Assembly: GCF_009914755.1 (NCBI RefSeq)
Contig: NC_060943.1
From: the human T2T-CHM13v2.0 reference genome, Homo sapiens
Reading direction: 5' to 3' (one strand)
DNA: 64,000 nucleotides
Part shown: one piece after another, positions 50,701 through 53,889 of the stretch
Numbering within the stretch: position 1 is the stretch's first letter
Layout: every line of letters starts with the position of its first letter
Translations under genes and position numbers: made by a program
Notes under the pieces: generated by a model
Told to the model about the DNA's origin: nothing
Database searches by the model: none
Seen by the model: only the letters and a program-made list of their open reading frames with translations

Positions 50701-51507
50701 CGGGCATGATGGCAGGTGCCTGTAATCCTAGCTACTCGGGAGGCTGAGGCAGGAGAATTGCTTTAACCCGTGAGGCGGAGGTTGCAGTGAGCTGAGATTG
50801 CGCCACTGCACTCCAGTCTGGGTGTCAGAGCGAGACTCTGTGTCAAAAGAAAAAAAAAACAAAAAAACCCAAAAGGCTGGCAATCCAGTGAGTTGTCTTT
50901 CAGGAGGAAAATGTTGCTGGTGTTGAGGCAGCCGTGTGACTGTCACGTGCTCCGTGGCCTGGGCCTCTCCGTGTCATGTGTCTGCCCACCACGGTGCCCG
51001 GTGTTCCCGGCTGGCTCTGATGTGTGCTGTCAGCTTCCAGCATCGGAATGTATGCTGTCTTTGTGTACTTGGCCTGTGGGTCACTGGCCCTTTTCCCAAG
51101 GTCCTTGCCACCCCTTCTCCCCGGCCCCTCCTTCCACCTCCCCACCCAGACGGTAGAGTCTGATTTCCTTTTCCTCTGCCAGGGTGGAGCCCAGCCCTGG
51201 GCATTGACACAGCCAGCATGGGCCCTCTCCAGCTAGAGGCAGCGGGAGACAGAGGGTTGGAACGGTTACTGTTCTGAGACAGGGATGCTGAATGAGTCTT
51301 AAGAGAAGCCCTCCCAACTCCAGGGACACACACAAGCTCTGTGGAAGCCGTGCCTGGCACTGTTGGGACCAATTATGGGGTGGGGGGTGCTGGAAGGGGT
51401 GGGGAGGGGGACAATGGAGCATTCTCTGGCCTTGCTGGGCCTACTGCCACCAGATACCCCATGCAGTACATCCCGAAGAAGGCGTGTTCAGAATAGAAGG
51501 ATTTCCT

Positions 51508-52139
51508 AGTGGCTCACACGGGTAATCACTTTAAGAGGCCAAGCAGGGAAGATCGCTTGAGGCCAGGAGTTCAAGACCAGCCTGGGCAACAAAGTGAGAC
51601 TCTGTCTCTAATTTAAAATAATTAAGTAAATAAACTAGAAGGATTTCCTGAGCCAGGTGTGTTGGCTTATGTCTGTAATCCCAGCACTTTGGGAGACTGA
51701 GGCAGGAGGATCACTTGAGGCCAGGAATTCAAGACCAGCCTGGGCAACAAAGCCAGATACCATCTCTATTAAAACAAACAAACAAACAAACAAACAACAA
51801 CAACAAAAAAACCATAAAAAAATAGGGCCAGGTGCCGTGGCTCACACCTGTAATCCCAGCACTTTGGGAGGGCGAAGTGGGCGGATCACCTGAGGTCAGG
51901 AGTTCGAGACCAGCTTGGCCAACACAGTGAAACCCCGTCTCTACTAAAAATGCAAAAAATTAGCTGGGCATGGTGGCAGGCACCTGTAGTCCCAGGTACT
52001 TGGGAGGCTGAGGCTTGAGAATCACTTGGACCTGGGCAGGGGAAGTTGTAGTGAGCCAAGATTGCACCACTGCACTCCAGCTTGGGAGACAGAGCAAGAC
52101 TCCATCTCAAAAGAAAAAGAAAAAGAAAAGAAATAATAA
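51508..52139 (+). mobile_element. Two Alu monomers plus a full Alu inserted at the start of pseudo-exon B
   Basis: TSD TAGAAGGATTTCCT appears three times (51494, 51636, 52140). Confidence 0.85.
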
Positions 52140-52506
52140 TAGAAGGATTTCCTGGGAGATGGGGAGGGAGGAGTGTTGACATCAGCTAGGGCTGGGGCTG
52201 GAATGGGGAGGGGACACTTTCTGAACTCCTCTTCCCTACCCACCCCATTGCCTAGCAGTGAGGACCTCGTCTGGGCACCCGGTGCAGGTGTAGCTGGTGT
52301 GCAGTTGCTCTCACAGTTTAAGGAGGCCGGATGTGGCAGGCACATGGTCAGAAAGTGGGGCTGCAGGCTATCCATGGTCATCTTGGAGATTCTGGTCAGG
52401 GAGGAGCTGACCATGTCACCAGAGATGAAGGTGCCCCGCTGCTCGTAAACCATGACCCTGTAGATTTTACCGTTGAAGGCCAGCAAGCTCGGCTGCAGGT
52501 TCTGAT

Positions 52507-53849
52507 TGTGAAAGAAAAATCAATCTTGGGGCTCCTAAATCACTAAACTAAAGGAAAAAGTCAAGCTGGCAACTGCTTAGGGCAAACCTGCCTCCCATTC
52601 TATTCAAAGTCACCCCTCTGGCCAGGCAGCGTGGTGGCTCATGCCTATAATCCCAGCACTTTGGGAGGCTGAGGCTGGTGGTTAGCCGGGCCTGGTGGTG
52701 CATGCCTGTAATCTCAGCTACTTGGGAGGCTGAGGCAGGAGAATCACTTGAACCCGGGTGGTGGAGGTTGCAGTGAGCCAAGATCATGCCATTACACTCC
52801 AGCCTGGGTGACAAGAGGGAAAGTCCCTCTCAAAAAACAAAAAACAAGGGCCGGGCGCGGTGGCTCATGCCTATAATCCTAGCACTTTGGGAGGCCGAGG
52901 TGGGCGGATCATGAGGTCAGGAGATTGAGATCATCTTGGCCAACATGGTGAAACCCCGTCTCTACTAAAAATACAAAAAAATTAGCCAGGCGTGGTGGCA
53001 GGCGCCTGTAGTCCCAGCTACTTGGGAGGCTGAGGCAAGAGAATGGCGTGAACCCAGAAGGCGGAGCTTGCAGTGAGCAGAGATCACGCCACTGCACTCC
53101 AGCCTGGGCTACAGAGTAAGACTCCGTCTCAAAAAAAAAAAAAAAAAAACCCACAAAAAACAAAAAACAACAAGAACAAAGTCCCCACCTGCTCACTGAG
53201 ATACCTGCATATCTGATTGGCCTCTTTGGAGAGGCTAATCAGAAACTCAAAAGAATTCAAGCATTTGTCTCTTATCTACCTATGACCTGGAAGACCCTTC
53301 CCTGTTTCCAGTTGTCCCTCCTTTCCAGACCGAACCAATGTTCATCTTGCATATGTTGATCTCATGTCTCCCTAAAATGTATAAAACCAAGCTGTGCTCT
53401 GACCACCCTTGGGCACATGTCATCAGGATCTCCTGAGACTGTGTCACATATACGTGTTCTCAACCTTGGCAAAATAAACTTTCTAAATTAACTGATGGCC
53501 GGGCACAGTGGCTCACGCCTGTAATCCCAGCACTTTGGGAGGCTGAGGCGGGTGAATCACCTGAGGTCAGGGGTTAGAGACCAGCCTGGCCAACATGGCG
53601 AAACCTCATCTCTACTAAAAATACAAAAATTAGCCAGGTGTGGTGGCACATGCCTGTAATCCCATCTACTCAGGAGGCTGAGGCAGGAGAATTGCTTGAA
53701 TTCAAGAGGCGGAGGTTGCAGTGAGCTGAGATCGCACCACTGCACTCTAGCCTGGGGAATAGAGTGAGACTCCGTCTCAAAAAAAAAAGAAAAGTAAAAA
53801 ATAAAAAACTAAATTCACTGAGACCCGCCTCTGATATTTGGGGTTCACA
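52507..53849 (+). mobile_element. MER4A1-like ERV1 solo LTR interrupted by Alus
   Basis: TGTGAAAGAAAAATCAATCTTGGGG...CAAAATAAACTTTCTAAATTAACTGA...GGGGTTCACA; family name from memory. Confidence 0.8.
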
Positions 53850-53889
53850 TGGACATGAATCATCTCTCCCAGGCTGATCTGCAGGGCTC

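What the first reader, a model, noticed from the sequence alone, without database searches (positions are those of the whole stretch)
51448..53878. Hidden fossil of a lipid phosphate phosphatase (PLPP/PAP2) gene: candidate lost paralogue
Seen in sequence (minus strand): acceptor CTGCAG|ATC at 53878 gives ISLGEMIHV. After the LTR, the frame continues [68 protein letters not shown], then a 1-nt frameshift (~52300), then [17 protein letters not shown]| at 52252. A second exon (51505-51448) reads G-KSFYSEHAFFGMYCMGYLV. Established knowledge, recalled from memory: PLPP1 exon 3 is IILGETLSVY...[67 protein letters not shown] and exon 4 is LSFYSGHSSFSMYCMLFVA. The fossil aligns without gaps over 94 positions (about one third identical by eye, with all three Cys conserved) and 10/19 in the next exon. 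It has the same phase-2 split Arg codon, and the exon sizes (280+1 and 58 nt) match what I recall for PLPP1 (281 and 58). Inference: because it keeps introns and is this divergent, it is not a retrocopy of PLPP1-3 but an old paralogue inactivated in the primate lineage. I do not know of an annotation for it.
Basis: partly seen in the sequence, partly recalled or inferred. Interest (0 to 1): 0.92.

Follow-up and report, generated by a model that had tools for sequence, protein, structure and literature searches.

The report
Dead fourth lipid-phosphatase gene in humans
Upstream of TUBB4A lies the broken remnant of a fourth PLPP-type lipid phosphatase gene that lemurs, colugos, cattle and armadillos still carry as open gene models, so humans have lost a gene of this family rather than never having had it.

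Summary
The minus-strand frames at 53878-51448 match only PLPP1-3 among solved structures (E 2.6e-7 to 5e-6). They match "phospholipid phosphatase 3-like" gene models of other placentals much better: 57/91 identical residues to Microcebus against 31-35/90 to human PLPP1 and PLPP3.

A profile of those models finds six pieces in the window, all on the minus strand and in gene order from 58125 to 51445. Control frames gave nothing better than -3.1 bits.

The relic therefore spans about 58145-51448. It keeps its start codon and introns. It is broken by at least three frameshifts, two Alus in one exon, a 1.35-kb repeat block in another and about 630 nt of SINEs in a third. Three exons, including the one that should carry the third catalytic motif, were not found.

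Its DNA has no other copy in the genome, and no intact copy exists elsewhere. In trees it sits inside a 100/100 placental clade, sister (90-94% support) to the fish, amphibian and reptile "PLPP3-like/ppap2d" genes.

Verdict: a unitary, unprocessed pseudogene. It is absent from the RefSeq table supplied and from the searched literature. Interest is moderate.

The parts
57997..58145 (-). First coding exon of the relic. ATG at 58145-58143 and the next three codons read MALS. A 1-nt deletion near 58134 follows, and the ATG frame stops after 23 codons.
   Evidence: One search gives the translation MALSLEVTPRNRPRLGMPSAQPG*. Microcebus and Dasypus models also begin MALS. The +1 frame from 58134 aligns to Microcebus residues 5-54 (E 4e-4) and to Thomomys (E 0.02). 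The profile hit at 58125-58000 covers HMM positions 11-52. GT follows at 57996-57995.
56568..56664 (-). Second exon, 5' part (QWPGD... to ...KMLDA). It holds a net frameshift between the QWPGD frame and the KMLDA frame.
   Evidence: Profile hit at HMM 59-79, E 0.2. After Alu excision it rises to HMM 59-98, 12.1 bits, E 0.002. The DNA was read. The exact acceptor was not fixed.
55979..56567 (-). Two tandem Alu elements inserted into the second exon, flanked by an 11-nt target-site duplication (56578-56568 and 55978-55968).
   Evidence: sequence; Alu interval 55978-56567 by blastn with Alus taken from the window.
55942..55978 (-). Second exon, 3' part (repeat of the duplicated 11 nt, then ...SDFFYLML). 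GT donor at 55941-55940 (GTGAGC).
   Evidence: It aligns to the LVALDLFCLMLV segment of the placental models, where those models pass into the first transmembrane helix.
53850..53878 (-). Head of the exon equivalent to PLPP1 exon 3 (ISLGEMIHV + CA), after a CAG acceptor.
   Evidence: HMM 149-161. The residues match the ISLGEMI(Y/R/L)V of the orthologues.
52503..53849 (-). Insertion block of 1,347 nt that splits that exon. It is an interspersed LTR-like repeat carrying three Alus (53497-53795 and 52630-53145).
   Evidence: the non-Alu core 53150-53496 had 3,535 first-look candidates genome-wide, and all 39 scored copies elsewhere were 84-88% identical. One search gives the Alu intervals. The repeat family name was not determined.
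52252..52502 (-). Main body of the same exon. It carries motif C1 (K...QP, with the Arg replaced by Gln), three conserved Cys and a 1-nt deletion near 52300. It ends in AG of a split Arg codon. The next two bases are GC, not GT.
   Evidence: (E 9e-19 to Microcebus).
52152..52251 (-). Original short intron (100 nt) between the PLPP1 exon 3 and exon 4 equivalents.
   Evidence: Read-through ORFs of relatives (P0010, P0015, P0007) run from the exon end through a similarly short stretch into the next exon.
52138..52151 (-). True start of the exon equivalent to PLPP1 exon 4 (first 14 nt; first copy of the target-site duplication).
   Evidence: family D2, three copies.
51506..52137 (-). SINE block inside that exon: one full Alu (51826-52123), two Alu-monomer-like units (51508-51782) and a middle copy of the duplicated exon start.
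   Evidence: (families D1 and D2).
51448..51505 (-). Rest of that exon (58 nt counting the duplicated start). It reads KSFYSEHAFFGMYCMGYLV and carries motif C2 as S-E-H. GC follows at 51447-51446.
   Evidence: E 8e-7 to Cynocephalus; E 1.2e-5.

Best explanation
Window 58145-51448, minus strand, holds a unitary, unprocessed pseudogene. It is the dead human orthologue of a fourth PLPP-type (type-2 phosphatidic acid / lipid phosphate phosphatase) gene.

The living relatives are six-helix membrane enzymes. Their active site is built from three motifs: C1 K-x6-RP, C2 S-G-H and C3 S/T-R-x5-H-x3-D (motif definitions recalled from established knowledge). Fish, amphibian and reptile members keep all three. 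Placental members, auto-annotated as 'PLPP3-like', have an added N-terminal extension and an altered C2.

In the human lineage the gene stopped being maintained and decayed in place. Shown here:
- a 1-nt deletion after codon 4;
- a frameshift and two Alus in the second exon;
- a 1.35-kb repeat block and a 1-nt deletion in the C1 exon;
- about 630 nt of SINEs in the C2 exon;
- non-GT bases at two donor positions.

The exon for transmembrane helices 1-2, the C3 exon and the last exon could not be detected. Inferred, not shown: no protein is made, and the loss happened after the split from lemurs.
For: Family:
- 5 of 5 PDB hits are PLPP1-3.
- The own-genome search hits only the PLPP1, PLPP2 and PLPP3 exons.
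- Exon length and the split Arg codon match PLPP1 exon 3.

Orthology:
- The best library hits are 50-57% identical, against 40-42% for the human paralogues.
- They are named PLPP3-like, 2-like or 1-like in 16 placental rows and 5.
- Over the large exon the fossil is 57/91 identical to Microcebus and 50-51/91 to four other placentals, but 37/91 to Pelodiscus and 31-35/90 to human PLPP1 and PLPP3.
- Trees: the fossil sits inside a 100/100 clade of 9 placental rows. That clade is sister to the non-mammal PLPP3-like/ppap2d clade at 94/93 and 90/92.
- Fossil plus true PLPP3 as one clade is rejected, p-AU 0.0002.

Gene-like layout: the six profile hits are all minus-strand and colinear. The best hit in the plus-strand and reversed controls scored -3.1 bits.

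Lesions.

Unitary status: the exon DNA is unique in the genome. The Microcebus protein finds only this locus, PLPP1-3 and PLPPR exons genome-wide (14 matches).
Against: - Pfam PAP2 gave no hit on any of the 4 fragments. The genome-wide PF01569 scan listed 9 matches, none in the window.
- Three of the seven expected exons were not found, so only about 60% of a gene is documented.
- The three upstream pieces are individually weak: E 0.002 to 1 within the window, and -1.9 to 4.7 bits.
- Union of the placental clade with true PLPP3 is only marginally rejected (p-AU 0.043). A quick tree gave 71% for the join with the non-mammal clade.
- Synteny of the orthologues could not be examined.
- No anthropoid sequence was compared.
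- GENCODE and Ensembl pseudogene tracks could not be consulted.
Confidence: 0.88

Rival explanations
1. The placental clade, including the human relic, is not the orthologue of the fish/amphibian/reptile 'PLPP3-like/ppap2d' gene. Instead it is a duplicate of PLPP3 that arose on the mammalian stem and then evolved very fast.
For: The placental stem branch is very long (1.27-1.32 changes per column), so its position is prone to long-branch effects. The AU test against placental plus true PLPP3 is only p 0.043. The quick tree supports the join with the non-mammal clade at only 71%.
Against: Both careful trees put the placental clade with the non-mammal fourth clade, at 94/93 and 90/92. Human PLPP3 groups with amphibian PLPP3 at 100/98, apart from it.
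Confidence: 0.12
2. A recent segmental duplicate or a processed retrocopy of human PLPP1, PLPP2 or PLPP3.
For: None beyond the family likeness.
Against: There is no nucleotide-level match elsewhere in the genome for 52160-52502 (1 match, itself). Amino-acid identity to the human paralogues is only 34-39%. Introns with acceptor and donor positions are retained. The tree position is outside PLPP1-3.
Confidence: 0.01
3. The locus is still used: either as a non-coding transcript driven by the retained CpG-rich 5' end, or as a short peptide from the retained ATG.
For: The ATG and first four codons are intact. The 600 nt at and upstream of the ATG (58000-58599) have 60-69% G+C and CpG observed/expected of 0.61-0.82.
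Against: RefSeq lists no gene or transcript here (hub table). The ATG frame ends after 23 codons. No expression data could be consulted.
Confidence: 0.15
4. Chance open frames in repeat-rich intergenic DNA.
For: Pfam found nothing. By blastn with the window's own Alus, the window is 42% Alu (26,687 of 64,000 nt).
Against: E about 1e-25 to the placental profile and 9e-19 to the Microcebus protein. The six hits are colinear, with no comparable hit in the control frames.
Confidence: 0.005

Closest known systems
'Phospholipid phosphatase 3-like' gene models of placental mammals (e.g. Microcebus murinus P0069, Cynocephalus volans P0068, Cervus canadensis P0070, Dasypus novemcinctus P0073)
   Same: Same clade at 100/100. 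Identity over the large exon is 50-57 of 91. They share the N-terminal extension beginning MALS (Microcebus, Dasypus), the S-E-x form of motif C2, the exon boundaries and the short intron.
   Different: Those are open gene models. The human copy has frameshifts, repeat insertions and undetectable exons. Its C1 Arg is Gln.
Fish 'phosphatidic acid phosphatase type 2D' (ppap2d, as named for Anguilla P0155) and reptile/amphibian 'PLPP3-like' genes
   Same: Sister clade at 90-94% support, with the same overall architecture.
   Different: All 6 non-mammal rows examined keep canonical C1, C2 (SGH) and C3. They lack the placental N-terminal extension. Identity to the fossil is 30-37 of about 91.
Human PLPP3, PLPP1 and PLPP2 (LPP3, LPP1, LPP2)
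   Same: Same family. The exon has the same size and phase as PLPP1 exon 3. These are the only PDB hits.
   Different: They are 34-39% identical, lie at other loci (C1:56.4 Mb, C5:56.3 Mb, C19:0.24 Mb) and form separate clades.
PLPPR / plasticity-related genes (catalytically altered PLPP relatives; property recalled)
   Same: A possible functional parallel for the placental members, whose C2 motif has lost the Gly in all rows and the His in many.
   Different: They are a different clade. PLPPR exons are only distant hits (E 4e-9 and weaker). No functional data were seen.
Classical human unitary pseudogenes (e.g. GULOP; recalled)
   Same: A single-copy gene decayed in place, with introns kept and intact orthologues in other mammals.
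   Different: The gene family is different, and here the ancestral placental gene already had altered catalytic motifs.

Membership tests
PAP2 / PLPP lipid phosphate phosphatases (Pfam PF01569) | Significant sequence similarity to known members | tested here: met
   PDB phmmer gave PLPP3, PLPP1 and PLPP2 only, E 2.6e-7 to 5.1e-6. Own-genome exon hits scored E 2e-5 to 3e-4. The placental profile scored about 1e-25.
PAP2 / PLPP lipid phosphate phosphatases (Pfam PF01569) | Match to the Pfam PAP2 model above its cut-off | tested here: not met
   No family matched any of the 4 fragments at E <= 10. The window is not among the 9 genome matches to PF01569, all of which lie over the C3-bearing part of the model. 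That exon is missing here.
PAP2 / PLPP lipid phosphate phosphatases (Pfam PF01569) | Motif C1, K-x6-R-P (definition recalled) | tested here: not met
   The human copy reads K-MTMDSL-Q-P: Lys and Pro are kept, Arg is replaced by Gln. Of the 11 named placental rows, 9 keep K...RP and 2 (Dipodomys, Thomomys) have Gln for the Lys. The unnamed row P0003 has Gln for the Arg, like the human copy.
PAP2 / PLPP lipid phosphate phosphatases (Pfam PF01569) | Motif C2, S-G-H (definition recalled) | tested here: not met
   The human copy reads S-E-H. The Gly is replaced in all 11 named placental rows. P0003 is not aligned at this motif.
PAP2 / PLPP lipid phosphate phosphatases (Pfam PF01569) | Motif C3, S/T-R-x5-H-x3-D (definition recalled) | tested here: inconclusive
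   No exon carrying it was detected in 44346-51447 or anywhere else in the window. A weak tblastn hit at 45479-45366 (E 0.041) was not recovered by the placental profile and was judged chance.
PAP2 / PLPP lipid phosphate phosphatases (Pfam PF01569) | Exon structure shared with PLPP1 | tested here: met
The fossil exon has 280 nt (+1 deleted) against 281 nt in PLPP1, and both end in AG of a split Arg codon.
Unitary (unprocessed) pseudogene | Disabling lesions in the coding sequence | tested here: met
   Premature stop after 23 codons. Frameshifts in two further exons. Repeat insertions in three exons.
Unitary (unprocessed) pseudogene | Introns retained | tested here: met
   CAG acceptor at 53881-53879. 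AG acceptor at 52153-52152. GT donors at 57996-57995 and 55941-55940.
Unitary (unprocessed) pseudogene | No functional copy of the same gene elsewhere in the genome | tested here: met
   The Microcebus protein found 14 matches genome-wide: this locus, PLPP1-3 exons and PLPPR exons only. The DNA of 52160-52502 is unique.
Unitary (unprocessed) pseudogene | Intact orthologue in other species at the syntenic place | not testable with these tools
   Open gene models exist in other placentals and group with the fossil. Their genomic neighbours could not be seen. One unnamed read-through ORF (P0015) continues into sequence resembling the human intron at 51372-50974.
Fourth vertebrate PLPP paralogue ('PLPP3-like' / ppap2d) | Monophyly with the fish, amphibian and reptile members to the exclusion of PLPP1-3 | tested here: met
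   Support 94/93 and 90/92. The alternative with true PLPP3 has p-AU 0.043. The quick tree gave 71%. Moderately, not strongly, supported.

The most novel reading that the evidence does not exclude
Placental mammals inherited a fourth LPP-type gene. On the placental stem it gained an N-terminal extension and lost the canonical C2 (S-G-H) motif, becoming a fast-evolving, probably non-catalytic 'pseudo-phosphatase'. It is still kept open in lemurs, colugos, ruminants, whales, xenarthrans and geomyoid rodents, and was discarded in the lineage to humans. If so, the textbook count of three mammalian LPPs is incomplete. The human relic, with its start codon and CpG-rich 5' end intact, marks a lineage-specific loss of a lipid-signalling regulator.
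Probability: 0.35. Interest if true: 0.6.

Novelty: new member of a known kind. Interest (0 to 1): 0.45.

Why it matters
Mammals are usually said to have three lipid phosphate phosphatases (PLPP1-3), which control LPA, S1P and PA signalling. This relic shows that the human lineage once had a fourth. The same gene survives as open models in several placental orders with altered catalytic motifs, and in reptiles, amphibians and fish with canonical ones.

This gives a concrete case of lineage-specific gene loss in a pharmacologically watched family. It supplies an annotation for an unlabelled interval upstream of TUBB4A. It also gives a reason to test whether the cattle or lemur protein is an enzyme or a non-catalytic regulator. 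As a human pseudogene it is otherwise ordinary.

Tried and rejected
- **Pfam on four fragments:** no hit.
- **Word-indexed protein search with the 70-aa frame, longer proteins:** 8 candidates, none significant. The full HMMER scan was what found the relatives.
- **Search for the missing exons:** tblastn with human PLPP1-3 exon translations was swamped by Alu-derived hits. Its best non-Alu hit, 45479-45366 (E 0.041), was not found by the placental profile and looks like chance on inspection.
- **Exon-specific tblastn with 8 orthologue segments:** best scores were 15-20 bits on both strands. A hit at 53955-53920 just upstream of the ISLGEM exon was rejected. Read-through ORFs of goat and others (P0008, P0005) show that stretch is intron.
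- **An apparent continuation of the second exon beyond 55942:** rejected once the GTGAGC donor was seen.
- **Tandem-repeat scan of 51000-59500:** only simple repeats.
- **Literature:** seven searches found no description of this locus or of a fourth mammalian PLPP. Only search listings and abstract starts were seen, and no paper was read.
- **Genome search with an amphibian PLPP3 protein** did not complete and was dropped. Human PLPP1-3 parts for the tree were taken from loci already held.
- **No structure or complex prediction** was run, because the question did not need one.
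Full report

The minus strand of 54100-51300 was read directly, and all stop-to-stop frames were listed.

The 70-residue frame 52519-52310 was compared with all PDB chain sequences. 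Five distinct sequences matched, all of them PLPP3, PLPP1 or PLPP2 (E 2.6e-7 to 5.1e-6). Against the whole T2T genome in six frames, the same peptide found itself, the corresponding exons of PLPP1 (C5:56.30 Mb), PLPP3 (C1:56.40 Mb) and PLPP2 (C19:0.24 Mb) at 40-42% identity, and one noise hit at E 5.3.

Pfam's PAP2 model did not match any of four fragments. A genome-wide scan with PF01569 returned nine places, none in the window. Those nine all align to the C-terminal part of the model, which the relic lacks.

PLPP1 exon 3 (locus L010) is preceded by CAG, has 94 codons and ends AG|GTGAGT, which makes 281 nt. The fossil has 29 + 251 = 280 nt and ends in the same split AG.

**2. What it is closest to**

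A full HMMER scan of 1.84 billion representative proteins gave 67 hits at E <= 0.001. The top ones (E 2e-12 to 1e-9) were 48-57% identical, clearly closer than PLPP1-3. One high-ranking hit, P0004, is a repeat protein that matches a short stretch of the query and is unrelated.

A word-indexed search seeded with one of the hits supplied names (229 hits, 120 listed). The sixteen best-matching placental rows are 'phospholipid phosphatase 3-like', '2-like' or '1-like' models, or unnamed proteins, from:
- Dipodomys and Thomomys;
- Cynocephalus;
- Microcebus (two isoforms);
- Cervus (two species), Ovis, Muntiacus (two), Rangifer, Bos javanicus and Capra;
- Dasypus and Choloepus;
- Mesoplodon.

A search for shorter proteins added Galeopterus, Odocoileus, Bison, Orcinus and Physeter (14 hits).

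Next in rank come 'PLPP3-like' proteins of turtles, lizards, snakes, alligator and frogs, and fish proteins. One of the fish proteins (Anguilla) is named 'phosphatidic acid phosphatase type 2D'.

No row of this group came from an anthropoid primate, a murid, a carnivore, a bat, an afrotherian, a marsupial or a monotreme. However, 109 rows were not shown, and loci annotated as pseudogenes have no protein entry. Absence of a model is therefore not proof of loss.

Over the large exon the fossil is identical at:

| Compared with | Identical residues |
|---|---|
| Microcebus | 57 of 91 |
| Cynocephalus, Dasypus, Dipodomys | 51 of 91 |
| Cervus | 50 of 91 |
| Pelodiscus | 37 of 91 |
| Anguilla | 30 of 90 |
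| Human PLPP1 | 35 of 90 |
| Human PLPP3 | 31 of 90 |
| Human PLPP2 | 33 of 85 |

**3. Phylogeny**

The first tree had 39 rows. They were the fossil's conceptual translation with X at the frameshift, 8 placental models, 15 non-mammal 'PLPP3-like' rows, 2 amphibian PLPP3, 9 PLPP1 and 4 PLPP2 (IQ-TREE, LG+C20+F+G4).

- The fossil sits inside a 100/100 clade of nine placental rows.
- The stem of that clade is very long (1.27 changes per column).
- The clade is sister to the fish, amphibian and reptile group at 94/93.
- The two together are sister to true PLPP3.

Partial human PLPP1, PLPP2 and PLPP3 (exons read from the genome) were then added. The picture stayed the same: 100/100 for the placental clade and 90/92 for its union with the non-mammal clade. 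The human paralogues fell with their own orthologues. The unfinished quick version gave only 71% for that union.

AU tests:
- Fossil with true PLPP3, away from the placental rows, is rejected (p 0.0002).
- The whole placental clade with true PLPP3 is only marginally rejected (p 0.043).

The fossil's own branch is long (0.82-0.84) and it fills 34% of the columns, so its exact position inside the placental clade is unresolved.

**4. Extent and anatomy of the relic**

A profile was built from up to 15 placental members and searched against all six-frame ORFs of the window. The search was repeated after cutting out Alus found by blastn with the window's own Alus. It was repeated again on whole frames with stops read as X, with plus-strand and reversed frames as controls.

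In one search only seven hits appeared. Six are on the minus strand and in gene order. The seventh is a reversed-sequence control at -3.1 bits.

| Window position | Profile positions | Score (bits) |
|---|---|---|
| 58125-58000 | 11-52 | -1.9 |
| 56664-55943 | 59-97 | 4.7 |
| 53884-53849 | 149-160 | -1.3 |
| 52510-52304 | 158-226 | 78.4 |
| 52298-52248 | 229-245 | 6.3 |
| 51507-51445 | 244-264 | 13.3 |

*First coding exon.* ATG at 58145-58143 and the next three codons read MALS, the same four residues that open the Microcebus and Dasypus models. In the ATG frame a stop follows after 23 codons. One base over, the frame from 58134 aligns to Microcebus residues 5-54 (E 4e-4). A single-base deletion after codon 4 is therefore inferred. 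GT follows at 57996-57995.

*Second exon.* The frame reads ...QWPGD..., and in another frame ...KMLDA. Two tandem Alus follow (56567-55979), bounded by an 11-nt direct repeat (56578-56568 and 55978-55968). The exon then resumes ...SDFFYLML and ends at a GTGAGC donor (55941). This corresponds to the ...QWP(A/G)D...AKMLVALDLFCLMLV stretch of the orthologues. The change of frame within the exon is a second frameshift.

*Exon equivalent to PLPP1 exon 3.* The head lies at 53878-53850 and the body at 52502-52252, separated by 1,347 nt. The non-Alu core of this insert is a high-copy interspersed repeat. It had 3,535 first-look candidates, and all 39 scored copies elsewhere were 84-88% identical. The insert carries three Alus. 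A 1-nt deletion near 52300 shifts the frame.

*Exon equivalent to PLPP1 exon 4.* The next intron is only 100 nt (52251-52152). This exon really starts at 52151. After 14 nt it is interrupted by about 630 nt of SINE sequence. Three copies of the exon's first 14-16 nt flank the inserts.

*Donor positions.* The bases after both of these last two exons are GC rather than GT.

*Missing exons.* No trace was found of the exon for transmembrane helices 1-2 (expected between 55941 and 53879), of the exon with motif C3, or of the last exon (expected between 51447 and the TUBB4A promoter). This held despite relaxed searches. They are deleted or decayed beyond recognition.

**5. Unitary status**

The DNA of 52160-52502 has no second match in the genome. 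This excludes a recent duplication.

The Microcebus protein, searched genome-wide, finds 14 places: this locus (53% identity), exons of PLPP1-3, and PLPPR genes. It finds no other copy of the fourth paralogue.

**6. Catalytic motifs (motif definitions recalled)**

All six non-mammal members examined keep C1 (K-x6-RP), C2 (S-G-H) and C3 (S/T-R-x5-H-x3-D).

Twelve placental rows besides the fossil were aligned: eleven named and one unnamed (P0003).
- **C2 glycine:** replaced (E, K or V) in all eleven named rows. P0003 is not aligned at this motif.
- **C2 histidine:** kept in three of those eleven (Cynocephalus, Dasypus, Choloepus) and in the human fossil. It is Q, N or D in the other eight.
- **C3 arginine:** Q or H in three of the eleven rows that have this region (Thomomys lacks it).
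- **C1 lysine:** Q in the two geomyoid rodents.

The human copy reads K...QP in C1, having lost the Arg, and S-E-H in C2.

The very long placental stem, together with these changes, suggests the gene's chemistry changed or its constraint relaxed before the placental radiation. Even so, open models persist in several orders, and none of the placental rows is flagged 'LOW QUALITY'. Whether those proteins are active enzymes, non-catalytic regulators or slowly dying genes cannot be decided without coding DNA, which was not available here.

**7. Mechanism and history: what is shown and what is inferred**

Shown:
- family membership by sequence;
- closest kin;
- retained introns;
- the lesions listed above;
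- uniqueness in the genome.

Inferred:
- The locus makes no PLPP-like protein.
- The loss post-dates the split from strepsirrhines. The lemur model is open, and the copies of the repeat that splits the C1 exon are 84-88% alike, which points to an old but post-mammalian-radiation insertion.
- The gene is the fourth vertebrate PLPP paralogue. Tree support is moderate and synteny is untested.

**8. Known or new?**

The hub's RefSeq table shows no gene between TUBB4A and TNFSF9.

Seven full-text searches found nothing on this locus, on a human PLPP unitary pseudogene, or on a fourth mammalian LPP. 'ppap2d' occurs in four papers and 'phospholipid phosphatase 3-like' in two, all as entries in expression lists judging by title and abstract. 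Only listings were seen.

The fourth paralogue itself is already present in automated annotations of other species.

What is new here is the recognition of its human remnant and of the degenerate catalytic motifs across placentals.

**9. Verdict**

This is a genuine, well-supported unitary pseudogene of a known enzyme family. Interest is moderate.

Noticed in passing
window 58000-58599: A CpG-rich stretch (G+C 60-69%, CpG observed/expected 0.61-0.82 in 200-nt windows) sits at and just upstream of the relic's retained ATG. It looks like the remnant of, or a still active, CpG-island promoter.
   Followed up: partly
window 57215-57949, minus strand: A long open frame (245 aa) rich in Pro/Ser with recurring ...SPGPAHFP... 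units lies in the relic's first intron. Tandem Repeats Finder did not call an array there, so it may be a degenerate minisatellite or low-complexity DNA.
   Followed up: partly
window 54652-54704: A perfect (AC)26 microsatellite lies in the interval where the missing exon for transmembrane helices 1-2 would be expected.
   Followed up: no
proteins P0011, P0012, P0068-P0073: Across placental 'PLPP3-like' models the C2 motif Gly is always replaced and the His often replaced. Fish, frog and reptile members are canonical. This is a possible pseudo-phosphatase lineage that appears unstudied in the searched literature.
   Followed up: partly
window 51372-50974, minus strand, vs protein P0015: An unnamed read-through ORF from the protein library continues past the C2 exon into sequence resembling the human intron downstream of 51448. 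This implies conserved non-coding sequence at the orthologous locus of some other species.
   Followed up: no
whole window: Blastn with three Alus from the window marks 71 merged intervals totalling 26,687 of 64,000 nt as Alu. Alu insertions hit three of the four recognisable exons of the relic.
   Followed up: partly
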